Below, one piece after another: positions 3,301 through 28,620 of a DNA stretch of 64,000 bases. The stretch comes from a virus. The stretch lies in the IMG/VR virus record IMGVR_UViG_3300045988_163836, one strand, 5' to 3'. Made by a program: the position numbers and the translations under genes. Below the pieces are notes generated by a model. The model searched no databases, had not been told where the DNA came from, and saw only the letters and a program-made list of their open reading frames with translations. Numbering within the stretch: position 1 is the first letter of the stretch; each line of letters opens with the position of its first letter.

Positions 3301-3918
3301 TGTACTAAGTTTAGCTGTCATATCTACATCATTAATTATAACATTCTACTCTGGTTCTTTGCCAAAATGTGTTACACATTCTTTAATAACCGTAAATATA
3401 GGCACTTGCTCAATTGTAATATCTCCATTTTCATCTTCATATTGTGTCTCATGAAAGGTAACTGCTGAAGGTAATGTACCTCCACAAGTACCATCAAGCA
3501 TACACATTTTATCCTTACCTGAAATAGAAATATTTGCAGCAGAAGCTGTAGTAGAAGAAGTAGCTTGATTAATTACAAATGTTCCAAGAGGAAACCAAAT
3601 AATATCTCCATAGGTTTTATAATCTTCAAATGGATTCTCAAGTCCTACCTCTACTTTTACTTTTTTATTAATTGAAATAATATTTTCAATATTATTAATG
3701 TCATTCTCATTTTCTACACCGCTAATTGTTAGACTAATCGTGCGGCGCAAGGCGGCAGACCCATTAACTGTAATAGAGCCTGCCGTTGCTATACCCTATA
3801 CTTCTCGTATGGGTTTTTCATCAACAAAAGATAAAATGGTAAGTTTGATATAATGTTTTTTTATACGCATTTCATCTAATGCAGTTAAAAACTCACTATC
3901 TTTTAGATATTCTCTCAT
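313..3918 (-). CDS. Tail fiber / receptor-binding-like structural protein of about 1200 aa. TAG is decoded as sense.
   Basis: Hand translation from the ATG at 3916-3918 (RBS GGAG upstream, ATGA overlap with the upstream gene stop). The frame stays open to a TAA at 313-315 if about 10 in-frame TAGs are read as an amino acid. There are N/D-rich low-complexity tracts and repeated LDPGF motifs. Track fragments 946..1272, 1321..1572, 1975..2229 and 3346..3750 all lie in this frame. Confidence 0.5.
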
Positions 3919-6900
3919 TCCGTTTTCTCCTATGATTCATCTTTTTCTTTCTGCTTACCTTTTTTAACTTCCAAAGATGAAACAGATTTATAATTAACTA
4001 TTGCATAAGTAGGTCTAACAAATTCTACTTTAACAATCTCATCTTTCAAAGGATTTAAAATTAATTTATTAGTAGGTCCAATACGTACATGAGTGCCAGG
4101 AGAACTAATATGATAATTACCAGTAGTTGCATCAAGATCATACTCTCTATAAAAAACTAAATCTGTATTAGCATCTGCTTCAATTTCGATACTATCAATA
4201 CCAGTAAAATTATATATAATTAATTGATCTGAACCATTCATCCAAGCATCAGTCTATTTATTTAAAGTTAATCCAGACAAAGGTCTATAATTTTCTAATA
4301 ACTATGTACCAGTTATTAATAATTCTTCAATAGACTCTGTATCATCTTTAACTCTATTTAAAAATTCATTTATATCATTATACAATAAATCAAAAGTAGA
4401 TTCAAGTTTTTCATCACTATAATTATTTAAAATAGAAGTATGTACTTTTTCTTTTATTATATCCATTAAATTTAATGTAGAATATAATCCATAATTATAT
4501 TTTTCATTAACTATCTAAGTATCATCATTTCTAAAGAACTAATAATTATCAAGAATATCTTGAGTATCAGTAAATACTCCACCAAGCTATCCCCATTGTG
4601 CAAATTCACGCTTAGTAACAGTCACCATTTCTAAGAAATCTTCTTCCTCTAAATCAACTATATAATTAATTAAAATAGGGCGAGTAAATTTTAAATACAT
4701 ACTATCAATAATGGCATCATCCAAATGATAAATACGACTGGGCATCATAGAAATTTCTTTACCATTTATTATCATAGTAATAATATTAGTCTAATTTTTT
4801 TCATATTCCTATAAAAGCTATTCACATCTTAATAATTCAACTGCATTAGTTAACTGACCTATCATAGTTGAACTAGTTTTATTTTTTAAATATTCTATTT
4901 TATTTTTAAGATTTAGTTTAGGATACTATTCTACCCAAATCGCTTTTATTCTTCTTACTCGATATTTTCTATCTTCACTTATTTCTTGTTCTTCTTGAAG
5001 TTTTATTGCGTTACAAATGTTATCATAAGTAAGATTAAATTTATTATTATCAACTATAGATAATTTATTATTAGTAATTTCCTGTGCATATTTTCCATTA
5101 AATGTTCGAGCTACTTGCCCAATAACTGTTTTAGTTTTTGTACTAGCATTCTAAATTGCTAATTTAGAATTATTAGACAAAGTAGTTAATGGATTTATCT
5201 AATATAAGATAATATTTTCTGGGGTACAATCAGCTACTTCATAAGCTGTTGAATTAAAATCATAAATCATACGATATAAAGAAGCTTGAGGAGTCCAAGT
5301 AACATTAGTTAAAGTAACTATATGATTTCCTTCAGTTGGTGACTTAAATAATTTATAACCACCATCATTTAAAAATTCTTCTACCCAATGTCTATATATA
5401 CGTTCCATATATATATTATCATTAGTTGGATTAGTATTAAATGTAGAAGCATTTTGAATATTATATTGTCTTATATTATAATCATTGTTATATGGATTCT
5501 ATAAATCACGTTCAAAAGTTTTAATATATTTATCTTTTGAAATAACTATATCTCCATACCAACTATGATAATAACCACCTTTAGCATCATTACGCATTAA
5601 AAAAGAAGAATCAATATCACTTAATAAAGAAATTTTTGCACCTAACTAAAATTCTGCATAATGTGCCAATCCATTACGCAAAATAATCGGATATTTAGAA
5701 TTCAAGCTATCTTGCTTTTGGAATAAAGTAGTATGCTTATAACTATTCATTTTGCAATCAAAATCTAAACGAACTTGAATACCATTATTATAAATATAAC
5801 TATACTAAAAATTAGACCAATGCGCTGGTGATGAATCAATATCATCACTTTCATATTTAGGGGCACTTCTTAATCCTACAGCATTCTATTTCTATAAAGC
5901 ATATTTATATTTAACTCCACTTTCAACAGTAAAATCTTCATATAATAAAGTTAACTTATCATCATAATTAGTTTCATTATACCAATCAAATTGAGCTATA
6001 TCTTTCCATTGAGTATAATTATCAGTTTCACAAGCTCTTGATAAAATAAAAGTACCATCAAGAGATTGATATTTTTCTACATCTATTTCACGTTCTACTT
6101 TTTCACCAGTAATAGTAGTAATAGTTATTTTTTCTTTTACTTCATAAGGATTATTTTTAATATAAATTTCTAAGCTGCCATTTTCATCAGCTCGCAAATT
6201 ATGACTAAAATCTTCAATTGCTTTTATTCTAGTAATTTTACTTAATACATGAGTTTCTATATTATCTTCATTAATATTACCAGTTTGATAAATTATATCT
6301 CCCGCATTATACCCATCTGCATCATCATAATAACCTTTAATAAATTTAGGAGCCTATCCTTTTAATCCAAAATATTCCTTATACATCTAAAAAGCAACTT
6401 GATTTGCTCCGGCTATTTTATTTAATAATATGGTAGATTCAGTATTATCTTTTACTGTAAATACTAAAGTCTATAACTATTTTAAATAATTTTCAGTAAT
6501 AGTAAAATTATAATATTCAGAAGATTTTTGATAATTATTCATTGTAATAACATCAAAAATCAATGAATACATTTTTATTCCAGTCTAATCTAATTGTCTA
6601 TTAAAACTATAAGAGACTAAAGCACTATATTTATCTTTCCCTCCACCATTATACTATAGCCAATCACTCTATAAATATGGCTCAGAACTTGGAGGATTCT
6701 TTGAATTAAAACTGCCTTCATATAATCTAAAACGATATTTATCCAATGGTTCAGTATCGCTTTGATATCCTCCCTCAAATTTAGGGAAACGGCTAACTTC
6801 TATATTATTACTTGATATTAAAATAAATCCTACATCTAATGAAGAAGTATCTTTATTATTTAATATTTCTACAATTGGATCATCAATTGCTTTAGTAATT

Positions 6901-7343
6901 ATAATATTGGACCATTCTGAAAAAGCTTCAGCTACAGTCTAAGATTTTTTCCATTTAAAAAATGAAATTTTATCTGTATAATCTATTTTCCCATAGCCAA
7001 AACGTATCTAAATTTTATAATAAGTATTAGAAACCCAACCTATTGTATCTCCTAATTTAATATCTGAACTATTTACAGTAACTGTATATATTTCATTATC
7101 AGTAGAGGTAGTTGGCTTTTCCATATAAATAATACCATCCCAATATTTATCAGTATTAATTATACTTTTATTATTGGATTGCTATACAAATTTAATTGAG
7201 ATATTCTTTACATCCTCATAATTTAATGATTTAGGTAAAGAAAAATTTATATTAATAGAGGCCGCAGTTGCTAAAAATGCTGGTATTGAACTATCTACAA
7301 TAGGCGGATATACTCTATTTATATTTATTGTGGACGCTGCCAT
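3915..7343 (-). CDS. Large tail/baseplate structural protein of about 1140 aa (TAG as sense).
   Basis: ATG at 7341-7343 preceded by AAGGAGG. The frame is continuous through many TAGs to a TGA at 3915-3917. Track fragments 3930..4241, 4587..4775, 5199..5408 and 5892..6197 are in this frame. Confidence 0.5.
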
Positions 7344-7451
7344 TTATTGACCTCCTTTAACTCTTATTTCTATTTATTTTTAAAAATTATATATTGTAAA
7401 CATACTATTTTGGTCCAAATAAAAAAAAAGAATGATGGATAAAAATCCATC

Positions 7452-10400
7452 ATTCTTCAATATACCAATCACGTAATTTTATATTTTTAGGAGCAATATA
7501 ATCAGATAACTATTGTTTTAAATCAGCATTTGTAGCTATCTCATTTAGCAATTTAGCTACTGTTAAAATATTAGTCACACTTTCTTCTTTTAACTAAATA
7601 GAACCATCAACATTAAAACATAAAGCATCTCCTGCTAATTTTACAACTCCATCAGAACGCAAAATATTGGTAGGAATACCATCTATATCATATTGATATA
7701 ATCCTGAAACAAACCCTGAACTATCTAATTCTTCCGCTGGTTCTTCTTCAGCTTCTAAACTTAATGTCTAAATTTCTAAATCTTTTCCTGGATCTTCGAT
7801 AGGCAAGGTATATTTTCTACGTTTATTTTCCCACAAAGAACCTACATAAGTTTTACCTTCATCTCGCGCCCAAGGCCTACCATGAGAAAACCCTGGATCA
7901 AGAGGCTTTTCAGATTCTACATTATCTTCATCAAGTACGGGTATATTAGTACCATCATTATCTTCATCTGTTATAATAGTAATATCTTTATTATTAAGCA
8001 TTACTATTGGATAAAATAAACTACCTTTATTATCTGGCAAAAAAATCTATAATGCACCCATAGGAACTGTTTTTACTTGGTCAGTGGATTTAGCAAAATA
8101 AGCACCTGGATAATTTTCTTGTGGTCTAAGGTATTGCTATTTTACATTATCAGAATTAGTAGAATTAACTATAATTATATAATCAGTAAGAGACACTGGA
8201 TTAGTAACCTATAATAAATCAATAAATTTTTTACCATCATATTTATACATAAAAGAAATCTATTTATTTATTAAAGAAGGAGTTCCCTTTTCATTATAAG
8301 TAATTTTAGAAGGTATATTAATATTACCAATGCTATTAACTACAAAATTAGTACTAACCATTATAGGCTTGTAATAATATAAAGTCTAATTTGTAATAGC
8401 TTTATTCTCTAACCCTATAGTTACTTTAAATTTTATAAAATACTAACCCTTACAATCTTCAACTGGATTTGAAATTTTAAATACATTTTTTTCTTTATTT
8501 ACTTTTTCACAATCTAAATTGATAGGATCTGCTTCAACAGTTATTTTATATTTATCTGTGACATTACCAACAGCATCCTAATAAGCAGAACCATTTATTA
8601 TTTTATTACCATTATATCTTACTTCTGGCATAAGATAAATCGGTTCATAACCAGACCCACTTTTTTTATTAATAGGTTTAGTATCGAGTTCACTGCCATC
8701 AACATTACAATCTTTAATAATTAATTGATAATCTAAACCACTAACTGTTGAGTCACCTGGTTTAATAAAAACAATACTTTTATTAAACTTAAATTCTTTA
8801 TCAGCTAATGTTATTACTTTTAATGATAAGGTATTATTAGTATAAGTATCTACATATTTAGGTTTAATATAATAATGTAAAGCATTATTAGTTTTATCTA
8901 TCCAAAGCTTTGAAAGCATTGAATTAGTAATTTTAGTAGTAGGATATTCTAAAAGTTCTCCTCCATCAGGTGAATACCAAGTAACACTTTTAACTCCTAT
9001 ATTTTCCTTATCTACGCTAATAGTTGGAGTAATAATTATTTCTTTATTAGCCTAATCTAAAGAAATACTACCATTAACATCATACTAAAAAGTATCTGTT
9101 CCACTAAATACTACTCGCACGGGCGATTCTTGTTTATAAGTAATTAATTTATATTCGCAAGGTACATAATCACCAGTATCTAATTTACTAACACTATAAA
9201 ATATTACATTACCATATTCTAAAAACTAACTTACATCAATCTAACTAACTCCAGTAGATAAAGGTAAATATGATCCATCCATCAAATCAACATACCAATC
9301 AGCTTCATTAATAGTTTCTAATGAATCTACAATAGATAATTTAACTTCATTTTCACTAATAAATTGCGGAATTATAGTAAATCGTTCATTATAATATTTA
9401 ACTACTCTAACATCTTTATATAAAGTAACATTAGAATTATATACTACCACTAATTTATATCGCATCTATTGATATACATCTTTGCCCGAAATAGTTAGTT
9501 CATTAAATCTTACATTAGAACTATCATTAATACATTCCCACCCAGGGCCGCCTATCTAATCATATTTTTCACTACCAGATAGAACTGCCGGATTCTATTT
9601 ATACCAATAACATTTGCAAGTTTTTTCTTCTAATATATTTTTATTAGCATAATAAAAAACGCCTATTAATTTTATTTTATCGGTATCTTGAATTAATGAT
9701 AAACCCTATGGCGCGCTAATACCTACATAATATAAATCTTTAGTAGAATCTTGGACATCAACAAAACTAAGTTTTATATTTTTGACAAAAAGATTAGGTT
9801 CTTTATTATAAACCGCAGTTATCTCACCTTTACCGTTAAAAACAGTATCATATCTTAAAAATCTTTCTTGAAAAAATGTAATTTTTTTTATGCCAATTAA
9901 ATTAATTCCAGTTAAATCATAAATTACATACTATGGTGAAAATACTTCATAATCGTAAATACTACCAGAGAAATTTATAATATCTAATCTACGACTAAAA
10001 ACAATACCTGTATCTTTTTCTACAAAATCAATTTTTAATCCATAATTACCAGCCATCATTGTTCCATAAAACTATGTTCTAAAATCGGCCTAAATCATAA
10101 TACGAGGATAAGTAGTTAATAAACTGGTAAAAATTACATCTTCAGTGAGATTATCATTTTCATAAATTACCTATTCATAATATTTACTTTTATCTTCTTC
10201 CTCTTCTATCGGTTCTTTACTATCTTCAGCCTAAGTATCAGTTGCAGTACCTTCTTTTGTATCATTTGATGAATTATCTTTATCATCTTTTGGAGTTTCT
10301 TCTTCTTCCTTTTTAGGTTCTGGGGCATAAGCTAAGATACCATATTCATTACCATTGCTATATATTTCACTTATTTCAACTACTTGCTAAGATAAATCGC

Positions 10401-10746
10401 TATATTCTTCTTCTGTATAAGAAGTAGCAGATGCTTTGCCTTCAATAGTTTTTTTCTAAGTAAAATCACCGCCTGGTACTTTTACATATACATTAGTTCC
10501 TTTAGAATATACATAAGTTAATGTAGCTGGGGCATAAGCACAGAATTTGCCTTTTTGATATTCAACAAAATACTCTCCAGTACTGGCGTCGTTTAGACTT
10601 ATAACTTCAGCAATTATAGTTTTATCAAATGATAATTCAGCATCACGTGCCCGTGCTATATAATCTATAGTCTCTAATAAGGTATCTGTTATTTCTTTTG
10701 GCTTTTTTATAGTAGCTAAATATTCTTCTTTTCTATTATAAGCCAT
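7452..10746 (-). CDS. Large distal tail protein of about 1098 aa, immediately downstream of the tape measure gene (Dit/Tal-like by position).
   Basis: ATG at 10744-10746 with RBS GGAG. It ends at a TGA at about 7452 and is followed by a rho-independent terminator hairpin at about 7415-7450. Track fragments 7768..8040, 8578..8919, 9241..9465 and 10456..10746 join if TAG is read as sense. There is one LDPGF motif. Confidence 0.5.
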
Positions 10747-10802
10747 ATTAACTCCTTTCTCTCCTCAAAAATGAGGAGGAAATTAATCCTCCTCATTTAG
10801 AT

Positions 10803-13800
10803 TTATTTGCACTTATATATTGAGCCGCATTATTACTAAGATTAGACAATGCTTCTTCAATTTCATAATGATCAGTAACTCCTGGGAAGTCTGCTTGGAT
10901 AGTAACTTCTTGCTTAATTGGCTAAGTTTCATAAACAGGTGGAGTAGTTTTATCAATTAAATTACCCAACTTTATCTATCCAAAATTAATCATTGATTGC
11001 ACTTGTTTATCAACCCAATCATTCATATTACGAACAATATCAACTGCACGAAGTATATTAGAAGTATCTTTTTGGTTAAGAATTAATTCTTTAGGATGGA
11101 CTTTAATAATTTTACCATTATCAAGTCCAAAGCCTTGTCCTTTAGCCCAATTACCAGTATAAGCACCAGAAGCAGCACCATTTCCGTTTAAAATATCATC
11201 TAACCATTTTTCATCTTTTTCGCTAGTAATCTATTTCATTTCGTCTTTAGTCCAATAATCAGTGCTAGAATCATTCTTTAATTCTTGACCCTCATTACGC
11301 ATATTATCTAATTTTTCATTACGGGCTGTAACTACATCATCAATACTCGTCCAAACGTTACCATTTTTATCAACAACAGTACTTTCCCCATTCTTCATAC
11401 GAATAGCAATAGCACTTAAATCAACACCAACTAAATTTCTAGCACCACTTCCGCCGCCGCTACTGCCAAAGTTACCATCAATATACTATTCATTCTTAGC
11501 TAACTCTTCATCAGTCCGCTTAGAATATTTCTATTCCCAATCAAGAACCATTCCAATAGACTAAGAAATATAACCCATTAATACATTAACAAGCTCTTCA
11601 ATTTCATCACACAATTTTTGAATATGTTCTTCAAGACTATCAAGAGTACCGCCCATATCAGAACCAAAGTTTTCCCAAGATGTACCAGCAACGTTCATTG
11701 CTGCTTCAACAACTTTTTGCCAATCTTTATAATTGGTTTGTAATTCACTAATTGTAGTATTAGAATTATTAACAAATAACATATAAGCATCATTATAATC
11801 ATACAAATCAGTCATTTGGCCGTAGAGAGTATCATGGAATGTTAATCCACTATTTACAACACCTTTATTTAATTCATCAAGTAAATATCTTTGTCTTTCA
11901 ACATAATACTCTTGCAATGATAATAGCTAATTTGAATAATCCGCAGAGTTTTTATCAAGATCTTGTAGGGCTTCTTTAAAATCAATTTGATTCTAAATTA
12001 ACTATTCACTTACGTCATTAATATAATCCTTACTTAACTTACCTAATTCATGAACCGCATCTTCATATTTCTATGTGGCGTCTTCAATTTTTTCTTCATC
12101 TGCATCATAAGCATAAGTCCAGTTACCAGCGGCATCACGCACTAAACGCATTGAAGTTTTGGAATTTTGTTGCTCCATAAGAGCTATTTCAGCAAGTTGT
12201 AAGTCATATTTCTTCTACAAATACTCAAGATCATATTGGCTCATCTAGACGCCATCGGCCTGAAGATCGTGAATCTCTTGCTAAATGTCTCTAAGTTTTT
12301 GTTTAGCTAAAAGGTCATTAGTATCAGCCAGCTATAAATTTAGCTAACGATTTAATTTATTTAATTCATATAAGCGTTCGGCATCATCAAGATATTCTTC
12401 ATTGATAGTTTTTGCTTTTTCGTATTTGTCTTGGAAATCTTCAAGAGTTTCAAATGGTGATAATGCATTACTTAATACATTAACGGCCATTTCAACACGC
12501 ATTTCAAATAAATCTTGAGCAGCTTCAAGTGTTTCTTCCCAAGAAGCTAAAAATTCATCAGAAGCTTTTTCAGTTTCTTGTTTTAATACTTCAACTTGAT
12601 TCTCCCAGAATTTAACAGAAGATGTATCACCATCAGCCTGACGATCAGCGAGAGCGGCCTAAGCCTCTTTAGTTGCTTTAGCCAAACCATCCATTTGTGC
12701 TTTTAAGGATTTCATTTTACCTAACATTGTTTCTACCTTAGTAGCACCAATCTAAGTTTTTAATCCCATATCAAGCATTGAGCGACCAGATAAATCAATA
12801 ATATTATTAAGATGGTCAAGCATCGATGTATAAGTATCAAGACGTTCTATCTACTTATCAATTTCATCAAGTGCCAAGTCTAGAACATTCTAAACCAAAT
12901 CTTCAATATCATTACGTAAATCTAGAATAGCTTCATTAACATCAATTAAATCACTTTGATATTCAAGTATCTATTCATCAAACATTTGTTCATAACCTGG
13001 ATACTTAGCTTTCGCGGCGTTCAACTAATCAATACCCTAACGTAATGTAGCACCTTTATCAAAGAGCTATAACATTTCTTGCTCTTGGTAAGCAAATCCT
13101 TCAAGCATTGCTTCAATAGTTTGTTTATTACCATGGGCCTATTTAAGAAGTTTTTCTTGATAATAATTAAGACGTTTAATCTAATAATCAATCTATTTAA
13201 CTTTCCAATCAATAGCTTTTGTAATGGCTTCGAGTTCAAGTTCAGCAGCTTCTTTTTCTTTCTGAGCGATAAGAGCGACATTTTCATCAATGTTCTATTG
13301 GATACCCATAGGACCATCAAGACTATCTTTGATTTTAGTAAACCATTCATTCAGGTCTTCTTCACTCATGCCATCTTCAAGATTTTTTTGATACTAAGCC
13401 CAAACTTTACCCCATAGCTCAGAAGCATTAGCAATTTCACCATCATCAGTAAGCTTTATTTCAAATTCTGGATTTTCTTTGTTAAATTCTTCTACTTTAA
13501 GTTTTAATAACTTTTTCCAAGATTTAATCTAATCTTCAAGAATATCTTGCTCTTCTTTTAATAATTTTATTTCTTCTTGGATATATTTAGCAGAATCTTC
13601 TGGATTAGCTCCCTCACGTAAAGCTTCAAGACGATCACGTTTCTTTTCTTTTGTTTTTAATACTTCATCTTGAATTTCTTTACCAATATCATTAGCAGAT
13701 TTAGTAGATTTACCTCCACCGCCTCCGCCACCACCTTTATTCCCGTTTTCAGTGGTTAAATATTTGCTGCCATCACCTTGAGTAACAACAGAACCTTCAG

Positions 13801-16800
13801 AAGCAACAGAAACTATATCACCTATTTGACTTTTTAAATCTCTTAACTTGGCAGCGTCATCAGATGTAAGATCACTAATGTCTTTACCGCCCATAATATC
13901 AGCCATTTGAGCAAAACATTCTAATAATTGCTATAGCTAATCAGTAGTGAAATGAATGCCTACTTGGCCCATAGCATTAATCCATCCGCACATTTCTTCT
14001 AAAGAACCACTGATAGGAGTTATGGCAGCTAAAGCCTAAGAAGCATCTGCTGTAATTTTACCATTAACTACAAATCCATCGTTCTAAGATAAAAGATTAG
14101 TTATTTCAGTTAATTTAGATTGAGCTTCAGTATATAATGTTGAAAAATCTAATTTTCCCGCAGATTCATTTATTTTTTCGATTAAAGCACTATCTACTTG
14201 AGAAAACATATCTAAGACTTGACCAGCTAAAGCTGCTTCATCATCATTACCCCATAAAAATTTTTCTATTAATGGTTGATTCATCTAATAATCTGATTCA
14301 GAAAAATTAAATAAATCTTTTACTTTTTGTTTTAAATCAGCTTCTACTTCAGCAGTATCTTCACCTTCATCACGCAGCTCTTTATATTTTGTTTTTAATT
14401 CACTAATTTCTTTGGTAGCTTCTTTTATTTCATTATTACGTAAAGCATTATATAAATTATTAATAGCTTTTTGGGCGGCATTAGCATTATCTCCAGCCTA
14501 CTCCATTTCATAATTATACTAATTTAAAGCTTCAGTATTACCTTCAATATCTTGATTTTTAGCAGCCCAACTTACTAAACCTTGCTAGCTAGCCTCATCA
14601 CCTAAATTAAAACCTGTCATTTGATTCATTTCTTTTACTGAATTAGCATCAGTATAAGCATTAGTTCTTAATAAATCAGCATTATATGATCCATCAATAT
14701 TAGCCATATAAGCATCTATTATTCCTTGCATAATAGCAGCCTAAGTAGCTGAATCCTAACGTTTATAGAAGTCTAAATCATAATTACCACTTTCATCGGT
14801 GCCAACTAATTTTGCTATTTCTTCAGGACTGCCAAAAATATCTAAAGCCTATTGTAATAAGGATCCCCCAGAATCATCAGTTAAACCTTTTTGCATTGCC
14901 TCTAATTGAGTATATTCTTGTCCATTAAAAATATATCCACCTTGTTTTATACCGGATCCCCAAGCTTCTTGATGAGCCTCTGCAACGTTATGCTATTCTT
15001 CAGCTCTATCTACTCCAGCCTGAGTTAATGCATTCTTAGCAGCAGTATCAAAATCTTTAACTTTTACATAGGTATCCAGACCAGTCTAAACATAATAATC
15101 TTCAGGATTTAATCCAGCAGCTTTAAAACCTTCAGTGATCTTATCATATTTTTCTTGAGTGATAGAACTACCGACTTCTTGGCCCATCAAGTTAAAAATT
15201 TCAATTAACAAATCTCTAAAAGTAGTAAAATCTTCTATAGGCAATTTATTAGCAGTTTCTTGCATCATATCATAGAAGCCTTTCCAAGCTCCTTCATCAT
15301 CTGACACAACAATACCTAAATCTTCTAGGGTATCAATAAATTCTTCCCAAGTTCCAGAAGACCAATCAAAATCAGCTATTTTATTTAACTAATCAAAAGT
15401 TAAATCTTTTCCTATGGTATTAATCGCTTCAGTAAACGCGGCGACTCCATTTTTACCTGCCACTTTAAATATATCTTCTGCAATCTAAGAAATACGAGAT
15501 TTTAATGAAACACTATATCCTTCAAATTCATCAATTGCTTCTGATATATCATCTTCATCTTCAAGCCCTAATATATATTTAAATGCTTTATTATTATTTA
15601 TATCCTCAATGTTAGTAATCTAGTGAGATGCTTCTTCTACTATGGCTTCACCTAATTCTTTACCGCTGGTTACGCCTAATTCTTTCATCATATTAGACAT
15701 ATATGATTTTACGGTTTCTTGCTATTCAGGTTTTAATAAATTAAAATCTTCGCCAAATAAACTCTATCCAATTAAGTTCTGTAAATCTTCATCTTCAAAA
15801 CCTTTTTCTATATCTTTTTTTAACTATTTAAGCTAATCTTGAGTAAAATTACTTAAATCACCATCATTGCCAAAAAATTCTAAAATACCTTGGCCTACAG
15901 TTCCTTGATTGCTCATACCAGTCTAGAATTTTTGAGCCATAGCATAAGTAGTTTGAAGTTCTTTTCCCATAGCCTACATAGTAGCTATCGCAGTAGCAAC
16001 TTCTGAAAATGATTTAGTTTTTCCATTTTCTAATTGGAATGATCTATTCTAACCTTCACCAATTACAGAATTTTTCTAATCTAATTTATATTCACTATCA
16101 TTTTTATCTATTTTAATCGCTGCTAAATAAGCATCCCATAAATTACGTAAAGCTTGATCTCCTTTACCAACTCCACCAGCATTTTCATCGTGAGTTCCTA
16201 TTTCTCGGTCCTTACCAGTTCCGTCATCCCAACTAATAGTTCCATTCTCATTATAAAAACTATTTTTTATAGCTTCAATATTAGCATCTACCAAAGCAGT
16301 AGTTATTTTAGCATCTTCAGTAGACATAGTATCTAATCCAAGAGCCTATTGGACTGAAGCTTCTTTCGTAACCTATAATGTAGCATCAGTATTTGCTTGT
16401 ATTACTTTTGAGACATTAGATATAGCAGCTTGAACATCATCAGTATTAAATTTATCTGCAATTTTCTAGGCATAATCATTTAAAGTCGTACTGTTATTGA
16501 GAGTTTCAAATCCATTATTCTTTAATGCCTATTCAATAATACTAACTTGTTCTTCCTAACTTTTATTCTATAAATTTTCCTAATTATTTAAAATTAAATC
16601 TGCTATACCTGGCATTACTGAAGTATATTGTCCATTTTTTGTTAATCCTCCAGTTGTACTGCCACTCTAAATATTAAGAACACCCTAAAGATTACTTATT
16701 AAGTCCTATTTAGCTTTTTCAATATTTAAGTCTTCTAAATTGCTTTGTTCATTAGCTAAAGCATATTGCTATTGAAGAATCTATTTATCATAAATAGACT

Positions 16801-19800
16801 ATAATTTATCAACAGCACTTTGGTCTATCCAAATTTCACCAGTATCTTTCTTGCCCCAAGCACCTTCCATATTCTTTAGCTCAGGATAAGTATTTAAAAT
16901 ATTAAGAGCTTCTTCATTAGCTTTAGTTAACTATGCACGCCATTCTTTAGTACCAACAGTACATTCATCTAAAGCAGATTTAACAGAGCTATAACTATCA
17001 AATACTGATTTTAACTATTCAGCTTTATTTTTTGTTTCTTCTAACTAACTTTTAAAACTCTCAACAGCCTATTCAGAACGTTTAATTTGTTCTTCTATAG
17101 TAAAAGACTAAGCTGTATTATATACTTTAACCAATACAGCAATGGCAGCAACTACTGCTCCAATTATTAAAGCATATTTACCCAAAACAAGTAAAGATTT
17201 AGTAAACATTGCATGAGTCGCTGCACCACTAGCTGCCAATTGCTATTCAGCAGTTCCCGCAGAACCAGCAGCTACTCCCAATTCTTTAAGCTTGGCGGTA
17301 TAAGCATCAAGACCAGTTTGCATAATTTTAGCTCTAAATCCAGAGCTATTCTCTATCTTTGTCTTTAAAGCTGCCTATAAGTCAGAACCCTATAAAGACC
17401 CTCCTAAACCAGTCATTATTGATAAAATATTAGTACCTAGTCCCTTCCAATTAGTTCCAATTTCTTTTAATCCACTAGCTAACTAATTTACTCCATTGAT
17501 TAAAGAAGGAATAGCAAAACTTGCCGAAGTAATGCTCTAAGTTAATTTTTCTCCAAAATCTAATTCGCTATTATTTAAAGTATTAAACATTCCTTTTAAA
17601 CTATTGATTCCAATAGCTAATTGAGAAATACCCTAAAAACTAGAAACTAATCCTTGAGAAAAACTATATATAGATCCTTGACTAGCTTTTAATTCTGCGT
17701 TAAAAGCTTCAATAGCACTCTCATATTTTTCAACCGCTCCTTTGTTCTACAAAAGAGCCTCTTTCTCATTTACGTAATCTGTAAGACACTATCTTAAAGC
17801 ATTAGACTAAGCTTTTGTTAATTTTTCTGCTTTAATTTTCTAATTAACATAATTATCAATTTCAAGATTAACGTCTCTTAAATTATTAACTTCAGCTAAT
17901 ATATCTTTTCTAAGAGTACCTTTAGCACCATTACTTAGATTAGAATTGTTACCCTATTGAATTAACTAATTTAATTTACTATATCTTTGATTATTTAAAT
18001 CTAATTGACCAAATTGAGAAATAAAATCTTTAAAAGAACCATTTGAATTAATTTTTAAAGACTTTAAATCTTGCATTGTTTTATCATTATAAAAATTATC
18101 AACAATCTTTTGGCCTTTTTTTAAGTTATTGTCAAAATAAATTACGCCCTTATCTCCACCAAATTTTTTATTATTATCTTCAAAAATTGTATTGCGAGCA
18201 TTACGTAAATTGTTATTACTCTAAGTTTGTTGAGCTTCTATGCTTTTTTTAGATTCTATAGCTATTTGTCCATAAGCCTAAGAAATTTTTAATAATGTCT
18301 ATAATCTTAATTTATCTGTTTCATTTAACTAATTATTTGCTAGCTATAAATCATAAGAAGCCTCTGCAGCTTTAACCATTGTAGTTGTTTCTAATTCAAC
18401 TGAACCCTATTTTGTTAAATCAGGTTTTTCTTCATAAGTTGTAAAGGTCTTTAAAACATTTATCATCTACTGCTTCATAACCGCAGCCTAATTTTCAGCA
18501 GCTCCGCTGTCAATAAACAAATTGGAAGCCATACGCTGCATATTATTTACAATATCAGGACCGAAGCTTTTTAGCATTAAAGTAGAAATAACACTTAATA
18601 CACCAGGCAATCCGCCTAATGAATCAATCAATTTGCTTGTAATATTTAATGTATCACTTAATGTATCATTTAATCCGATAAAAAATTTATCACTAACTAA
18701 TTGCTTATAAATTTCTTCAAGAGAAGCTTGTACTCGCTTTTTAGAAGCTTCCCAACTTTCAGCATAAATATCAGCTTGTTCTTGTAAAGTACCTTCAGAA
18801 TTTTTAGCCACTCCAACTAGCTCTTTAAAATAATCTTTATTCTCCATAAGATTAACTAATTGAGTGTATTGACGAACACCACCAACAGTCTATGCAAGAG
18901 CCACTTGTTCAGCACGACTTAAACTATCCCACTTATTCATCATTTCATCAAGGATAGTATTCATATCTTTTAACTCACCCTATTGATCTTTAATACTAAT
19001 ACCAACTTTTTCAAGGGCTTTAGAATATTTATTTAAATCAGTACCATCTTCAAGAGTTTCTCCAAGAGTCAGACCCTAAATACGTGCAAATAAGGTTTTA
19101 AGGCTATTACCTACTGTATTCGCACTTTCACGTGTTTTGGCAGTTAATGTAGCTAATGCAGATGTAGCATATTCATAACTAAGACCAATAGTATTAGCAA
19201 CAGAAGCGAATTTCTATATACCTTCTGAAATTTCATCAGTACTAGAAGCAGTATATGCACCAAGTTTAGTCATTACATCTGCATAATATTCAAGAGATTT
19301 GCTACCATCATAGAAGTTATTCCAAACAGCAGTTAACTAATCAGATACTTTAGAAGCACTTTCGCCTGCGGCGTTAGCCATTTTAATAGTAACTTCAGTA
19401 CGATCAGCAACTTCTTTATCACTTAAACCCTATTGATAATAAATTAAAGAAGCATTAGTATAATTAGTAGTAGTTGTACTTAATGCTTGAGCAGCCTTAT
19501 TAGCTTTTTCAGCAAACTCAGCCATCTAATCATTACTCTATCCAGTAACTATACGAATATCATTTAATGATCTATTTAAATCTTCTGCATAATAGTAAGC
19601 TTTCTATAAAGAACCCTATACTCCATGCATTAAGTTAGATGAAATTTGCCATTTGGCTGTATTAGCTAATGTCTTTTTAAAATTATCTAATATAGCGTTA
19701 GTTCTTTTTAAAGGAACTTCAGCATTAATAACAGACTATGCTAATGCAACAAATGCTTTATCACCTGTTGGGCCTAGATTCTCTAAGTGTGTAGCAAAAT

Positions 19801-20095
19801 CCTAAAGAGTATAACCACTCTAGCTTAAACTCTTTGAAAATTTTGATAAATCTAAACGCCCAGTATTAACATTAGTCGCCTAATCTAAAGCAATTTTTAA
19901 CTCCTAAACTGCTGCCGAGGCTTCATCTATTTCTTTTTTAGTGGCATTAACATCAAAAAATTTAATATTTTTTGTTGCTATCTAATTCATTAAAGTATCT
20001 AATGAACTTTGTAAATCTCGTAATTGCTATTTAGCTTGACCTGTATCAGCTGTAAATCGCATATTAACATTATAATTAGCACTGTTATTAGCCAT
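10803..20095 (-). CDS. Tail tape measure protein of about 3100 aa. It is heavily TAG-recoded, with many dozens of in-frame TAGs and no internal TAA/TGA in my reading.
   Basis: ATG at about 20093-20095 after AAAGGAG. The frame is continuous to a TAA at about 10803. It is coiled-coil rich and has a poly-Gly (G8) tract encoded at about 13700-13740. Track fragments 11561..11917, 13529..13906, 14084..14284, 15086..15307, 16076..16327 and 18488..18847 are all in this frame. Its position after the chaperone-like gene and before the distal tail genes fits a tape measure protein. Confidence 0.7.
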
Positions 20096-20139
20096 AAAAT
20101 AGCTCCTTTCTCTCATTATAAATTTCTATATATATAAAG

Positions 20140-20172
20140 AAAAGGCGAGAGGAACAAAGCCTCTCGCCTTTT
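20140..20172 (-). terminator. Hairpin (attenuator/terminator) between the chaperone-like gene and the tape measure gene.
   Basis: aaaggcgagagg ... cctctcgcctttt. Confidence 0.4.
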
Positions 20173-20209: not shown

Positions 20210-20736
20210 TTAACCCATCTTGGTTAAAATATCTTTTACTAAAGATAGACTCTCAGGATTAGAAATCTTATCTTGCAGTTCATTAACATCTAAGTTTAAA
20301 TTAGAATAATTCTGATTCATAGCATCCATAATTCCATAAATACTATTATGATATTTATAATATCCATTAAGTGTTTCATAAGTATAGACTTCTAAATCAT
20401 CAGTTTGATTACAATCTACTTGCTTCTTCAATTCTTTCATAAACCCTGATCCAACAAGTAAATCATAAAGTTTATACAAATCTTCTTTTTGCTTATCAGT
20501 AAAAGATAAATTTGTATAATTAAATACTATTGCTAAATCCATATACATATGGAAAGCAAATTCATTCAAAAATTCATTATTAAAATCAATGACTTGTTGA
20601 ATGACCAACTAAGCAATATCCATTCTTTCCTTAATAGACAAATACTGCTTTACTTCAATAGATTGCTCATTAAAACTCCATTCTTTTACCTAAGAGTTTT
20701 TTTGAAGTGTAAGCTTGGAAAATGCCAATTTTGCCA
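20210..20736 (-). CDS. Tail assembly chaperone-like protein, about 175 aa, placed directly upstream of the tape measure gene.
   Basis: ATG at 20734-20736 with RBS AGGAGG. There are two in-frame TAGs. Track ORF 20210..20608 is the C-terminal part. The assignment is by position only. Confidence 0.35.
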
Positions 20737-20815
20737 TTACCTCGCCTCCTTCTTTATTATATTTTAAAAAAATTACCTAGGTAAATTTTTTAATTTTCAT
20801 TATCTTACAAATATA

Positions 20816-22380: not shown

Positions 22381-23466
22381 TTAAATATCAAAATAGCTGT
22401 CGTGCATCGGATCATGGATAGTTTGAGTACGATAGACACTATCATTGTCAATATCTTCAATGATCTGAATTGCAGCAAGTACTTTCTTAGTAGGATTGAA
22501 ACGAGTAGTTCCTGGGAAAGCATCAAGCGTGAAAGTGAAAGTCGCAGGATCGCCAGTCGCGGCCATGCTGAAAGTAAAGTTAGACTGAATCTTGCAGTTA
22601 GGGATTATAAATTCTGCTGGAAGATCAACGCCGTCTTGAGTACGGAATAGAGTAGAAGCTTCAAGATAGAAGTTGCCACCAAAAGATTCAGCAGTAATTT
22701 CAATTTGACGAGTCTTGCTGGCTTTCTCAATATAATAATCAAGAAGAACAACAGAGCCTTCAAAGAGTTCTAACTTATGTTCTGCCCCGGCTTCAGTTTC
22801 ATCGACGATTTTGTAAGTAGAAGTGATTTCCTTAATTTGAAGACCATAATAAATCTAAGTACCAGCTTTGGCTTTAGTATCAGCTTCTTCATCAGTGCAG
22901 GTCTTATACTTCATTTCAGTTTCATCAAAATAGAACTTTTGAGGTTTTGTTGGTGCCTCTGTCTAACGAATAACTGTAGGAAGATAAGGTTCAGTTACTG
23001 GCTCATCATTGTCAACTCGCATAGCATAAATATAGAATTCACCCTTATGCGCACCAGTAGTAGTATCAACTTGTTCATATGGTAAGTTCTTAACAAAAAT
23101 TTGTACACTCTTTTTATCTTCAGAGAGAGCGACAGCAGTTGTTTTTTCAGTTACATGCTGTTTAATCGTATTCTGCTTCGAAGCATCAATAAGACCTGCT
23201 CCAGCAAGAATCATGAAACCTTCAGCAGAAATAAGAGCATCTTCCATAGTGAATGTTAAAGTACGGTCGCCATCCCAAGCTACTAAACGAGCATTGCCGC
23301 GTCCGCCTTGTGCATATACGGTCGTAGAAGCACCTTCAAGGCTAGAAGTTTTTAATGTATCAAAATAAAGAACTGGTTCGTTCGCATAGAAAACTTTATT
23401 ACCAACCTTCATAGGAGCACGAGCTTTTAATACGACATCGCATATCTCACGAACACCAAATTTCAT
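22381..23466 (-). CDS. Major tail protein candidate, about 361 aa. It has only two in-frame TAGs and is GC-richer than its neighbours.
   Basis: ATG at 23464-23466 after AAGGAGG. Track ORFs 22963..23466 and 22381..22566 join through TAGs. A strong terminator hairpin (about 22199-22232) follows. Its position upstream of the chaperone and tape measure genes, its low TAG count and its higher GC suggest a highly expressed structural gene. Confidence 0.5.
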
Positions 23467-23540
23467 AGGTTATTTCCTCCTTAATAAAATTTAAATTTTA
23501 TTTATATAACTCGCTACAAAAATTAGTAAAGCGATTTATA

Positions 23541-24281
23541 CAAAATTAATGAATGTTTTTCATCCAATTGTCAGGTTTTTTATCTGACTTAACTCCTGCT
23601 AATCTACTCTTTACATCAGTATCCCAATTAGTGTAAAGAGAAAATCTTTCTATTAAATCGTATAACTAATACAATGTTAAATTCATACAATCTTCTAATG
23701 ACATTGAATCTAATCCAATAGTCAATGTAGAAACGTATTGGCTCAAAATGCTTGAATCGGTAACCCCTTTAAGTTCAGCGACTCTTTGACGCCCTTTCAT
23801 TAATTTATTAGCTATTTCTTGAGCTTTCTTATTAGCAGGATTATAGTTATCTTGCCCATTTTTATTAGTATCAAAACAAAAAATTTGTCTTGCTACCGAC
23901 TAAAATAATTCAAAGTTATCATCATCAAGATTAATCTAAATGTCACTCTCATTATACTAAATAACAATAGATCTAGGAGTAAATGTAGACTTTGAATTTG
24001 GGAATAGTAATGATAGAACCTATTGCGCGGCTTTACGCCGTTTAACATTATCTTTCTATAGCATTACCATCATAAATATCTAAAAATTGGTAGTAGTATC
24101 CAAATCATTCTTGTCCTGATTTGTTATACTATTTTTATTAATACAAAGACACTGAGCACCAGTAAAAAATTCTTTTTCGCCAATCAATGCTATTTCCTTT
24201 ATCTTAGGCTAATGAAGAGTCAATGGAATTTCTGGAACAGGTAAATCTGTTCCGCACATTAAACTAAGTTTATAATCCATT
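23541..24281 (-). CDS. Hypothetical head-tail joining or tail completion protein, about 246 aa (TAG-recoded).
   Basis: ATG at 24279-24281 overlaps the stop of the upstream gene. It ends at a TAA at 23541. There are about 9 in-frame TAGs. Confidence 0.35.
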
Positions 24282-24870
24282 AGTTCATTTTAGGCATTTT
24301 AAAATAATCCTCGATAAACATTTGTTCATCAGCAGGATTTGGCATATATTTTTTATCTTCTCCTCCGTGTATTGTATCATATAATAAACAAAGTCCAGCA
24401 AATTCATCAGTTAATATAATTTGCTATGCTCCGACGAAATTAAGTTGCCCAATTCCAGTTAAATGTTTTTTATCTAACATACTATCAAGTTCAGCAGCAA
24501 TTCTATAAGGTCTTAACTAAAATGAATCAGCTAACTGCCACTAATCATAATGACAAATAATATCAAATTCAATAGTATTATCTCTGAATTCAGGATTATC
24601 TCCATTAGGAGCAAAATTATCAAAACTAATAACGATATAATTTAAAACATCTTTATCTATATATAATTTTGGTAAATTCCTTATATTCTTGCCAAACATT
24701 TTTGCGAAATTCTAATCACTTACTTCTGGTTTTTTTAACGCATCAGGAGTAGTATAATAAAGTAATTTACGCAAACGTTGATTCGCGGCCATACGATCAA
24801 CTATAATTCTCATATCTTTCTCTTGGGCCAAAAATGCTGACTCTGGATTTTTTACATTATCAATTTTCAT
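24282..24870 (-). CDS. Hypothetical structural protein of about 195 aa (TAG-recoded).
   Basis: ATG at 24868-24870 after GGAGA. It ends at a TAA at 24282-24284. There are several in-frame TAGs. Confidence 0.35.
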
Positions 24871-24891
24871 TCTCCGATTTCTCCTTCATCT

Positions 24892-25887: not shown

Positions 25888-26173
25888 TGTGAAGCCCCCT
25901 TAATAAAGTAATAGCTTCAAACACTGTCTTTCTATAAATAGGAAATTCAATTTCAATATTTTTTAATCCTTCTAATTTACTTAAAAGAATTAAATACTAA
26001 CTATCGTTAAAAATTTCCCCAAGACCAGTTAATTCAATAATTACAGTATTTAACTAAGATAACCAATCTTCTTCATTTTCGCGCATAGGAATTAATTTCC
26101 ATATCTAATTAGTTAATCTATTAATATTAGTATTAATTAAATCATTATCTATATTAAAATTATATTTAGTCAT
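25877..26173 (-). CDS. Small hypothetical head-tail connector-region protein of about 98 aa (TAG-recoded).
   Basis: ATG at 26171-26173 overlaps the upstream stop (ATGA-type overlap). There are three in-frame TAGs and it ends at a TAA. Confidence 0.3.
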
Positions 26174-26777: not shown

Positions 26778-26799
26778 ATAAAACCCTCCTTATTTATAA

Positions 26800-27366: not shown

Positions 27367-27394
27367 TTTTTTTATTCTCCTTTTACTCATAAAA

Positions 27395-27430
27395 CAAAAT
27401 AGGGGAGAAGGGGATTTCCCCATTCTCCCC
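27395..27430 (-). terminator. Rho-independent terminator after the capsid gene.
   Basis: The minus strand reads aggggagaatggggaaatccccttctcccct followed by a T-run. Confidence 0.55.
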
Positions 27431-27466
27431 TAAAAATATTATATATTAATTTTTAGTTAATATCAA

Positions 27467-28603: not shown

Positions 28604-28620
28604 TTTTCTTCTCTCCTTTC

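What the first reader, a model, noticed from the sequence alone, without database searches (positions are those of the whole stretch)
10803..20095. Exceptionally long tape measure protein
The merged frame encodes about 3100 residues. By the usual roughly 0.15 nm per residue rule this predicts a tail several hundred nanometres long. The three downstream tail genes are each about 1100-1200 aa, which points to an unusually large virion tail apparatus. The gene is also the best single test-bed for the TAG-decoding hypothesis, because it has by far the most TAG sites.
Basis: inference. Interest (0 to 1): 0.5.

Follow-up and report, generated by a model that had tools for sequence, protein, structure and literature searches.

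The report
Long amber-recoded phage tape measure gene
This is a real 3,100-residue phage tail tape measure gene that reads the stop codon TAG as glutamine 108 times and predicts a tail of about 440-470 nm, but proteins of this size are normal for its lineage and are already known in cultured phages, so it is an ordinary member of a known kind.

Summary
With TAG read as sense, the minus strand 20095..10793 is one 3,100-codon gene with 108 in-frame TAGs and no TAA or TGA. It is a tape measure protein (TMP): PF10145, TIGR01760 and ten PHROG TMP families all match. Both ends align collinearly with standard-code TMPs of Enterococcus VRE9_3 and Bacillus SPbeta, so it is one protein.

Codon alignments with four relatives (66-87% identical to the window protein in the three closest, 52% in the fourth) show that TAG stands for glutamine (delta lnL about 575 over Glu). 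The 1,650-residue middle keeps its length within about 2.5% while identity falls to 23%, which is what a ruler should look like. Calibrating on Tsamsa (3,123 aa, 440 nm) and PhiL47 (3,275 aa, 480 nm) predicts a tail of about 440-470 nm.

"Exceptionally long" is not supported. AM4 is 3,280 aa, Thrax5 3,149, code-15 phage phAss-1 3,150 (110 TAGs) and P23-45 5,002. Among the nearest protein clusters the median is 3,012 aa and the maximum 4,156. The identical protein is already in public databases.

No suppressor tRNA was found in about 75% of the genome. TAG is avoided in probable capsid and tube genes but supplies about half of Gln codons in tail genes.

The parts
10793..20095 (-). Tape measure protein gene: 3,100 codons plus a TGA stop, with 108 in-frame TAG (Gln) codons, about 341 kDa
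   Evidence: frame, start, stop, TAG count. (PF10145, ten PHROG TMP families, TIGR01760). (an identical 3,100-aa protein, P0001, is in the public collection).
18605..19594 (-). Conserved TP901-type tape measure core domain (protein residues 168-497, which contain PF10145 at 199-406). The match spans eight TAG codons.
   Evidence: TIGR01760, 118.6 bits against a cutoff of 28.8. (PF10145, E 1.2e-27). (TAGs at residues 186, 190, 222, 253, 294, 340, 372, 402). (97-100% identical in the three closest relatives, synonymous changes far outnumbering non-synonymous).
17105..17209 (-). Strong hydrophobic, putative transmembrane segment (residues 963-997). The surrounding region, 957-1098, is conserved with the phAss-1 tape measure.
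   Evidence: Kyte-Doolittle maximum 2.35. (blastp 957-1098 against phAss-1 945-1087, 31% identity).
13796..18745 (-). Variable, length-conserved central 'ruler' segment (residues 451-2100)
   Evidence: 1650, 1655, 1692, 1641 and 1647 residues in five genomes, while identity to the window falls to 83, 73, 41 and 23%. One search gives the windowed identities.
11546..13795 (-). Conserved C-terminal region (residues 2101-2850), predicted mostly helical. It starts just before a Gly8 run at residues 2121-2128.
   Evidence: 94-97% identity in all four relatives. (collinear with VRE9_3 1667-2319 and phAss-1 2388-2836). (near-continuous helix, but a low-confidence model). (Gly8 run).
11096..11545 (-). 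Variable module (residues 2851-3000) with no recognised domain here. In longer family members it is replaced or expanded by an NlpC/P60 cell-wall hydrolase.
   Evidence: 150 aa here against 297 aa in L006, which shows the DCSG...HVGIY motif. (PF00877 in the 3,233-3,285-aa variants).
10796..11095 (-). Conserved extreme C-terminal motif (residues 3001-3100; the similarity begins at about 2975), shared with standard-code tape measures
   Evidence: 2976-3094 against VRE9_3 2556-2670 (32%); 2975-3059 against SPbeta YomI 2144-2216 (39.5%); also Thrax5 and AM4; the same ending motif occurs in the longest family representatives.
7450..10746 (-). First downstream gene, 1,098 aa, 25 TAG. It sits where the distal tail protein usually lies.
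   Evidence: size. (N-terminus and middle match the tail protein that follows the tape measure in Enterococcus phage VRE9_3). (no Pfam or PHROG hit).
3915..7343 (-). Second downstream gene, 1,142 aa, 27 TAG, function unassigned
   Evidence: only phrog_30026, of unknown function.
313..3918 (-). Third downstream gene, 1,201 aa, 18 TAG, probable tail or baseplate protein
   Evidence: phrog_1887 'tail protein', E 6.7e-12; phrog_32343, E 1e-40.
20210..20737 (-). Upstream 175-aa gene in the position where a tail assembly chaperone usually lies
   Evidence: phrog_30570; the same family lies upstream of the VRE9_3 tape measure (its CDS0015).
22381..23466 (-). Tail tube protein (361 aa, YomU_Tube / phrog_2729), TAG-poor
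   Evidence: precomputed PF27173 YomU_Tube. (phrog_2729, E 7.8e-54). (2 TAG out of 14 Gln codons).

Best explanation
Window 20095..10793 (minus strand) is the tail tape measure gene of a roughly 188-kb, low-GC, SPbeta/Enterococcus-EF1-like siphovirus from metagenomes whose late genes use genetic code 15 (TAG = Gln). It is translated as one 3,100-residue, roughly 341-kDa polypeptide. The protein has an N-terminal TP901-type core, a transmembrane segment, a long and mostly helical ruler, and a conserved C-terminal end. By analogy with lambda gpH, TP901-1 and SPP1, a few copies would fill the tail tube lumen during assembly, set tube length at about 0.14-0.15 nm per residue (so about 440-470 nm), and leave first at infection to help DNA cross the envelope. 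Because every copy needs 108 TAG read-throughs, the protein can be made only once TAG termination is almost fully suppressed in the infected cell. This fits the published idea that recoding holds back late genes. Shown here: gene structure, family membership, single-protein status, TAG = Gln and length conservation. Inferred: tail length, copy number, the assembly role and the timing role of TAG.
For: Gene structure.

Family: PF10145, TIGR01760 at 118.6 bits against a 28.8 cutoff, and ten PHROG TMP families. The domain match spans eight TAGs.

Single protein: it aligns collinearly from residue 1 to the C-terminus with the standard-code VRE9_3 tape measure, and its C-terminal motif matches SPbeta YomI, Thrax5 and AM4. 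Four independent IMG/VR assemblies keep one TAA/TGA-free frame of 3,090-3,229 codons with 107-115 TAGs. More than 120 database relatives are 2,910-3,285 aa.

TAG = Gln: the codons opposite TAG are TAG 49% and CAA 10%, the latter being the top non-TAG codon although it is two mutations away. Gln is the best of the 20 amino acids by delta lnL 575. 24% of CAG positions and 11% of CAA positions face a TAG in another genome.

Ruler: the length of the central 1,650 aa is conserved within about 2.5% at 23-83% identity.

Purifying selection: synonymous changes far outnumber non-synonymous ones in the conserved parts.

Siphovirus context: SPbeta-type head and tube Pfam families lie upstream, and PHROG gene order matches VRE9_3. 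No sheath gene was seen in the fully scanned stretch YonD..d3.

Calibration: Tsamsa 3,123 aa and 440 nm; PhiL47 3,275 aa and 480 nm; P23-45 5,002 aa and 800 nm; arithmetic.

Late-gene recoding: TAGs are confined to the minus-strand structural block, as described by Borges et al..
Against: No suppressor tRNA with a CUA anticodon was found in the window or in about 141 of 188 kb of genome equivalents, so the decoding agent is unidentified.

The test against distant standard-code homologues is weak: Gln is enriched at TAG columns (7 of 47, P = 0.013), but so is Ser (9 of 47).

The structure model is of low confidence (pLDDT 43.7), so helical content is only suggested.

The nm-per-residue rule assumes the whole chain acts as ruler. 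The C-terminal 250 residues look non-helical, and Tsamsa's tape measure runs as 280- and 100-kDa bands, so processing or non-ruler parts could shorten the tail.

There are no virion images or proteomics for this phage.
Confidence: 0.9

Rival explanations
1. The region is not one gene. It is a string of short standard-code ORFs or pseudogene debris, or several genes separated by genuine TAG stops.
For: Under table 11 only ORFs of 132 aa or less exist here. GenBank annotates the homologous phAss-1 region as 17 small hypothetical proteins. No suppressor tRNA was located.
Against: A TAA/TGA-free frame of 3,125 codons has a chance probability of about 1e-77. Single curated domain matches span six to eight TAGs. 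The frame is collinear end to end with an uninterrupted standard-code tape measure. The frame and its length are conserved in four diverged assemblies, with synonymous changes far outnumbering non-synonymous ones across TAG sites. TAG interchanges with CAA and CAG.
Confidence: 0.01
2. TAG is read through, but as an amino acid other than Gln (for example Glu, Lys, Tyr, Ser, Trp or pyrrolysine).
For: No tRNA-CUA was found that could reveal its identity elements. In distant standard-code homologues Ser is as enriched as Gln at TAG columns. Glu and Lys are the next most frequent residues opposite TAG.
Against: Gln beats every other amino acid by at least 575 log-likelihood units. CAA, two mutations from TAG, is the commonest replacement, whereas the single-step neighbours TAT (Tyr), TGG (Trp), TTG (Leu) and TCG (Ser) are rare. 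The ranking Gln, then Glu, then Lys is the normal exchange spectrum for Gln. Relatives in the same NCBI 'code 15 clade' carry a tRNA-Sup(CTA) assigned to Gln, and TAG = Gln has been shown by metaproteomics in other gut phages (abstract of PMC9523058, seen).
Confidence: 0.04
3. It is a tape measure, but a large part is cargo or an enzymatic domain rather than ruler, as with the RNA polymerase fused to the P23-45 tape measure or the hydrolases in SPbeta YomI. The tail would then be much shorter than 440 nm.
For: P23-45 shows that giant tape measures can carry enzymes. Relatives have an NlpC/P60 insertion at residues 2851-3000. About 2,500 residues have no family assignment. There is no PDB sequence match.
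Against: The unassigned middle diverges to 23% identity while keeping its length, which is the opposite of what a conserved enzyme would show. There is no DxDxD motif and no Pfam or NCBIfam domain beyond the core. Homologous Tsamsa and PhiL47 tape measures of the same size give measured tails of 440-480 nm.
Confidence: 0.05

Closest known systems
phAss-1 tape measure protein (OQ749652; Babkin et al. 2023, PMC10607447; NCBI 'Caudoviricetes code 15 clade')
   Same: A human-gut phage with TAG = Gln recoding of its late genes. Under code 15 its tape measure is 3,150 aa with 110 TAGs, almost the same size and TAG load. It is collinear at the N-terminal core, the transmembrane region and the C-terminal region.
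   Different: Only 27-32% identical in the aligned blocks. The genome is 136 kb rather than about 188 kb. phAss-1 carries three tRNA-Sup(CTA) genes and 36 tRNAs, whereas none with a CUA anticodon was found here in 75% of the genome. GenBank holds the phAss-1 gene as 17 fragments.
Enterococcus phage VRE9_3 / EF1 tape measure (phrog_34405)
   Same: The best PHROG match. It aligns collinearly from residue 1 to the C-terminal end. The surrounding head-to-tail genes are in the same order (phrog 35301, 4088, 30998, 2729, 30570, then the tape measure and a tail protein).
   Different: Standard genetic code, 2,673 aa, 22-32% identity, cultured on Enterococcus.
Bacillus phage vB_BanS-Tsamsa / Thrax5 tape measures
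   Same: Giant Firmicutes siphoviruses (157-169 kb) with tape measures of 3,123 and 3,149 aa. Tsamsa's measured tail is 440 nm. They share the N-terminal core and the C-terminal motif.
   Different: Standard code. The core domain starts at about residue 615 rather than about 130. About 24% identity.
Lactococcus 949-group tape measures (PhiL47 3,275 aa; AM4 3,280 aa)
   Same: The same size class, with measured tails of 480-500 nm. They share the core and the C-terminal motif.
   Different: Standard code, about 24% identity, and an extra N-terminal region of about 570 aa.
Bacillus prophage SPbeta YomI
   Same: The precomputed Pfam families on the neighbouring genes are SPbeta-named (YonD, YonB, YomW, YomV, YomU tube). 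The core aligns at 25% identity and the C-terminal motif at 39.5%.
   Different: YomI is 2,285 aa and is annotated as a transglycosylase. No hydrolase domain is detected in this window's protein.
Thermus phage P23-45 gp96
   Same: A giant tape measure that sets a very long tail.
   Different: 5,002 aa, an 800 nm tail, and an N-terminal virion RNA polymerase. No sequence relationship was tested or seen.

Membership tests
Phage tail tape measure protein, TP901-type core (TIGR01760 / PF10145) | Scores above the curated cutoff of the family models | tested here: met
   TIGR01760: 118.6 bits against a cutoff of 28.8, residues 168-497. PF10145: 97.6 bits against 33.2, residues 199-406. Ten PHROG TMP families at E values from 6e-42 to 2e-5.
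Phage tail tape measure protein, TP901-type core (TIGR01760 / PF10145) | Gene position: after the tail tube and chaperone genes and before the distal-tail and tail-tip genes | tested here: met
   The order is tube (YomU_Tube / phrog_2729), 439 aa, 175 aa (phrog_30570), tape measure, then three large genes. The first of these resembles the VRE9_3 tail protein and the third matches phrog_1887 'tail protein'.
Phage tail tape measure protein, TP901-type core (TIGR01760 / PF10145) | Long, predominantly alpha-helical chain with hydrophobic or transmembrane segment(s) | tested here: inconclusive
   One strong hydrophobic segment at 963-997. The AlphaFold2 single-sequence model of residues 2105-3100 is almost all helix to about 2854, but its mean pLDDT is only 43.7. 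Residues 1-2100 were not modelled.
Phage tail tape measure protein, TP901-type core (TIGR01760 / PF10145) | Length, rather than sequence, is the conserved property (ruler behaviour) | tested here: met
   The central segment is 1,641-1,692 residues in five genomes at 23-83% identity to the window. The close family spans 2,910-3,285 aa.
Phage tail tape measure protein, TP901-type core (TIGR01760 / PF10145) | Protein length determines tail length (deletions shorten the tail); the protein is present in virions | not testable with these tools
   This needs virions, electron microscopy, genetics or proteomics. Only calibration from homologues is available.
Genetic code 15 (TAG = Gln) recoded phages | In-frame TAGs in conserved genes, with TAA and TGA retained as the only stops | tested here: met
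   There are 108 TAGs in the tape measure. All minus-strand structural genes end in TAA or TGA, and TAG-recoding raises stop-to-stop frames of 300 codons or more from 1,612 to 11,442 codons in total.
Genetic code 15 (TAG = Gln) recoded phages | TAG aligns with Gln codons in homologues | tested here: met
   Within the family: CAA and CAG are the top non-TAG partners, and Gln is best by delta lnL 575. Against distant standard-code tape measures the support is only weak (Gln 15% against a 5.5% background, P = 0.013, with Ser also enriched).
Genetic code 15 (TAG = Gln) recoded phages | Phage-encoded suppressor tRNA with a CUA anticodon (common but not universal in such phages) | tested here: inconclusive
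   None in the window. None in about 141 of 188 kb of genome equivalents in close relatives, or in 2.4 Mb of fetched loci. About 47 kb was not seen.
Genetic code 15 (TAG = Gln) recoded phages | Recoding concentrated in late (structural and lysis) genes | tested here: met
   TAGs lie in the minus-strand block 313-37,445, while plus-strand genes from 43 to 64 kb have almost none. This matches the pattern described by Borges et al..
Phassvirus / phAss-1 group (Babkin et al. 2023) | Close genome similarity (80-86% nucleotide identity within the proposed genus) and placement in its clade in signature-protein trees | tested here: not met
   No megablast match of the tape measure DNA to any phage record. 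Tape measure identity is only 27-32%. Genome size differs (about 188 kb against 133-138 kb). Membership of the wider group was not tested by phylogeny.

The most novel reading that the evidence does not exclude
In this lineage the share of Gln codons written as TAG may be tuned to how many copies of each virion protein are needed. TAG supplies 48-64% of Gln codons in the low-copy tape measure and the first two tail-tip genes. It supplies 0-14% in the probable capsid, scaffold and tube genes. The pattern is conserved across five diverged genomes (Fisher P = 7e-9 for a grouping chosen after seeing the data). No phage suppressor tRNA was found in 75% of the genome. Taken together, amber decoding could be a limiting resource that sets both the timing and the stoichiometry of late proteins. 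The 108-TAG tape measure would be the strictest gate: it needs more than 99% read-through per codon for a yield above about one third. Decoding might also rely on something other than a classical phage tRNA-CUA.
Probability: 0.2. Interest if true: 0.55.

Novelty: new member of a known kind. Interest (0 to 1): 0.22.

Why it matters
For annotation, this gene shows how badly standard-code gene calling fails on recoded phages: a 9.3-kb gene becomes fragments of 132 aa or less here and 17 'hypothetical proteins' in the GenBank record of phAss-1. It also gives a clean internal proof that TAG means Gln, based on codon exchanges between relatives and not dependent on finding a tRNA.

For biology, it adds a predicted tail of about 450 nm to a large, uncultured, apparently gut-associated group of SPbeta/EF1-like siphoviruses. 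It also shows textbook ruler behaviour, with length conserved while sequence is not.

It does not extend the known range of tape measure sizes, and the protein sequence is already in public databases.

Tried and rejected
1. Megablast of the gene against 50,697 phage records found no match, so there is no close annotated relative.

2. Pfam and PHROG searches on the three large downstream proteins gave almost nothing, so the 'unusually large tail apparatus' idea could not be tested.

3. I looked for the suppressor tRNA with ARAGORN on the window and on loci reached by walking outward through relatives' contigs, using all 8 viral-contig scans, including intron-tolerant and relaxed settings. I found a tRNA array (Phe, Leu-UAG, Phe, an intron-split Gln-UUG, Val, Glu, an intron-split Asp, Ser, and an odd 88-nt 'Trp-CCA') but no CUA anticodon. 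I checked whether the intron-split tRNA-Gln could really carry a CUA anticodon. Its loop reads C-U-UUG-A-A, so it does not.

4. The X-masked alignment to three standard-code tape measures, meant as an independent test of TAG identity, had too little power: 47 cells, with Gln and Ser both enriched.

5. The single-sequence AlphaFold2 model of residues 2105-3100 had pLDDT 43.7, so I used neither its 3-D shape nor a fold search.

6. A PDB sequence search found no hit.

7. Self-blastp found no internal repeats, and there is no DxDxD polymerase motif of the P23-45 kind.

8. Assignment to one of Borges et al.'s gemstone clades could not be decided from the text alone.

Full report
OBSERVATION

Under the standard code, window 10.8-20.1 kb holds no ORF longer than 132 aa. 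Treating each stop codon in turn as sense, only TAG opens long frames. Stop-to-stop frames of 300 codons or more rise from 1,612 to 11,442 codons in total. One minus-strand frame, 10793..20170, is 3,125 codons long.

The best start is the ATG at 20095, which has GAAAGGAG 8 nt upstream. From there the gene is 3,100 codons with 108 TAGs and no TAA or TGA, and it ends at TGA 10793-10795. The left boundary is 10 nt short, because the TAA seen there is out of frame. At this base composition, a frame of that length free of TAA and TGA has a probability of about 1e-77.

WHAT IT IS

The protein matches:
- Pfam PF10145 at residues 199-406 (E 1.2e-27);
- NCBIfam TIGR01760 'tape_meas_TP901' at residues 168-497 (118.6 bits against a cutoff of 28.8);
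- ten PHROG families, all annotated as tail length tape measure protein.

The TIGR01760 match runs across eight TAG codons, which directly shows that TAG is read through.

The public protein collection already holds the identical 3,100-aa sequence (P0001, matching my TAG-to-Gln translation) on ENA contigs of about 188 kb. It also holds more than 120 relatives at 77-100% identity, 2,910-3,285 aa long.

The genes upstream carry precomputed Pfam families named after Bacillus prophage SPbeta structural proteins (YonD_N, YonB, YomW, YomV_2nd, YomU_Tube). By PHROG the whole head-to-tail module has the same gene order as Enterococcus phage VRE9_3. No sheath gene was seen in that stretch. The context is therefore a large Firmicutes-type siphovirus.

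ONE PROTEIN, NOT SEVERAL

The standard-code VRE9_3 tape measure (2,673 aa) aligns collinearly with residues 1-541, 2143-2832 and 2976-3094, that is, from the first residue to the C-terminal end. The C-terminal motif also matches SPbeta YomI (39.5% identity), Thrax5 and AM4.

Four independent IMG/VR assemblies each keep a single TAA/TGA-free frame of 3,107, 3,143, 3,090 and 3,229 codons, with 107-115 TAGs. Their proteins are 87%, 83%, 66% and 52% identical to the window's over the whole length. In the conserved parts, synonymous differences far outnumber non-synonymous ones.

WHAT TAG ENCODES

In codon alignments of the five genomes, the codon opposite a TAG is TAG in 49% of cases. After that come CAA (10%), GAA (6%), AAA (5%) and CAG (2.6%). 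CAA is two mutations away from TAG, so its lead reflects selection on the amino acid rather than mutational proximity. The single-step neighbours TAT, TGG, TTG and TCG are rare.

I compared the residues seen opposite TAG with the substitution profile of each of the 20 amino acids taken from the same alignment. Gln fits best, by 575 log-likelihood units over Glu. Conversely, 24% of CAG positions and 11% of CAA positions face a TAG in another genome, against 5% or less for nearly all other codons. The one exception, CGG at 17%, rests on 4 of 23 positions. The counts are not independent, because they use ordered pairs of related sequences, but the margin is very large.

A second test used an X-masked query against three standard-code tape measures. 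It has little power: 47 cells, Gln 15% against a 5.5% background (P = 0.013), with Ser equally enriched. I count it as weak support only.

TAG supplies 108 of the 223 Gln codons in this gene.

ANATOMY AND RULER BEHAVIOUR

- Residues 1-450 (TP901 core), 2101-2850 and 3001-3100 are 94-100% identical among the three closest relatives. In the most distant relative (L006) the first and last of these fall to 73% and 81%.
- Residues 451-2100 fall to 83, 73, 41 and 23% identity, yet this segment measures 1650, 1655, 1692, 1641 and 1647 residues in the five genomes. Conserved length with free sequence is what a ruler should show.
- There is one strong hydrophobic segment (963-997) and a Gly8 run (2121-2128). 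Self-comparison finds no internal repeats.
- Residues 2851-3000 form a swappable module. In the longer family members it holds an NlpC/P60 cell-wall hydrolase, and here it has no recognisable domain.
- A single-sequence AlphaFold2 model of residues 2105-3100 is nearly continuous helix to about 2854, but its confidence is poor (pLDDT 43.7). I use it only as a hint.
- No PDB chain matches by sequence.

TAIL LENGTH

Homologous phages with measured tails give these ratios:
- Tsamsa: 3,123 aa and 440 nm, 0.141 nm/aa;
- PhiL47: 3,275 aa and 480 nm, 0.147 nm/aa;
- P23-45 (not shown to be related): 5,002 aa and 800 nm, 0.160 nm/aa.

For 3,100 aa these give 437, 454 and 496 nm, and the nominal 0.15 rule gives 465 nm. 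About 440-470 nm is the best estimate. It is an inference, not an observation.

IS IT EXCEPTIONAL?

No. Annotated tape measures in cultured phages are as long or longer: Thrax5 3,149 aa, AM4 3,280 aa, PhiL47 3,275 aa, Tsamsa 3,123 aa and P23-45 5,002 aa.

The published code-15 gut phage phAss-1 has a tape measure of 3,150 aa with 110 TAGs when translated with table 15. Its GenBank record shows the gene as 17 small ORFs.

An exhaustive HMMER search of 1.84 billion cluster representatives with the N-terminal 570 residues finds 2,810 clusters at E of 1e-30 or better. Of the 150 nearest clusters, 128 are at least 2,300 aa long, with a median of 3,012 and an interquartile range of 2,843-3,117. Thirty-five of the 150 exceed 3,100 aa, and the maximum is 4,156. 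The longest end in the same C-terminal motif, so they are complete. A 3,100-aa tape measure is typical for this lineage.

DOWNSTREAM GENES

Their sizes (1,098, 1,142 and 1,201 aa) are confirmed. The first resembles the tail protein that follows the VRE9_3 tape measure. The third matches a 'tail protein' PHROG. The second is unassigned. Nothing here tests whether the tail tip is unusually large.

DECODING MACHINERY

No tRNA is present in the window. Walking outward through close relatives' contigs covered about 141 of 188 kb. It found one tRNA array, including a canonical tRNA-Gln(UUG) split by a 735-nt intron that carries an HNH endonuclease gene, but no CUA anticodon. About 47 kb remains unseen, so I cannot claim the suppressor is absent.

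Because full-length yield is the per-codon read-through efficiency raised to the power 108 (34% at 0.99, 0.4% at 0.95), TAG termination must be almost abolished when this gene is expressed.

TAGs are confined to the structural block. This fits the published proposal that recoding delays late genes.

VERDICT

This is a real, correctly interpreted tape measure gene and a good demonstration that TAG means Gln. It is an ordinary member of a large, already-sampled family, and its length is not exceptional. The most interesting loose ends lie outside the finding itself: the unidentified suppressor, and the conserved avoidance of TAG in probable high-copy virion genes.

Noticed in passing
window 22381-30624 compared with 313-22170 (minus strand); orthologues in L003-L006: TAG's share of Gln codons differs sharply between virion genes, and the difference is conserved in five diverged genomes. 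It is 0 of 11 in the YonB-like 378-aa gene (probable capsid protein), 1-2 of about 15 in the 258-aa gene, and 0-2 of 9-15 in the tube gene. It is about 50% in the tape measure and 43-64% in the first two tail-tip genes (Fisher P = 7e-9, with the grouping chosen after seeing the data).
   Followed up: partly
L118 9871-10680 (relative contig IMGVR_UViG_3300029858_000001), roughly 25 kb beyond the window's right end: A clean tRNA-Gln(UUG) is interrupted just after the anticodon by a 735-nt intron that carries an HNH endonuclease ORF. A tRNA-Asp(GUC) nearby (L118 11770-12308) has a 464-nt intron. Both appear only when ARAGORN is run with introns allowed.
   Followed up: partly
L118 13054-13141: An 88-nt tRNA called 'Trp(cca)' is drawn with an 8-bp acceptor stem, a 4-bp T stem, a long variable arm and a G discriminator, directly after tRNA-Ser(gct). 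The shape looks Ser- or Sec-like ('allo-tRNA'-like, from my own knowledge) rather than like a normal tRNA-Trp.
   Followed up: no
L118 9092-9167: A 76-nt class-I-shaped tRNA with a UAG anticodon (which reads CUA/CUG Leu codons) lacks the long variable arm typical of bacterial tRNA-Leu. It is not an amber suppressor.
   Followed up: no
window 7899, 2304, 2202, 2160, 1449 (minus strand; first and third downstream genes): A short motif, L-D-P-G/D-F, recurs five times inside Asn/Asp-rich low-complexity linkers of two of the large tail genes. Its function is unknown.
   Followed up: no
L010 17400-18557 (about 1.2 kb beyond the window's right end): A phage-encoded S-adenosylmethionine synthetase (MetK-like, three Pfam domains) carries one in-frame TAG, so recoding is not limited to structural genes.
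   Followed up: no
L002 5261-14713 (GenBank OQ749652, phage phAss-1): The deposited annotation splits the 3,150-aa, 110-TAG tape measure gene into 17 small 'hypothetical protein' CDS, some on the wrong strand.
   Followed up: yes
window 53839-54489 and 54775-55296 (minus strand): Two small minus-strand genes sit inside the otherwise TAG-free plus-strand region and have the highest TAG densities in the window (46 and 52 per 1,000 codons). In a near-identical contig, L010, the matching genes have weak GIY-YIG and DUF6291 hits.
   Followed up: no
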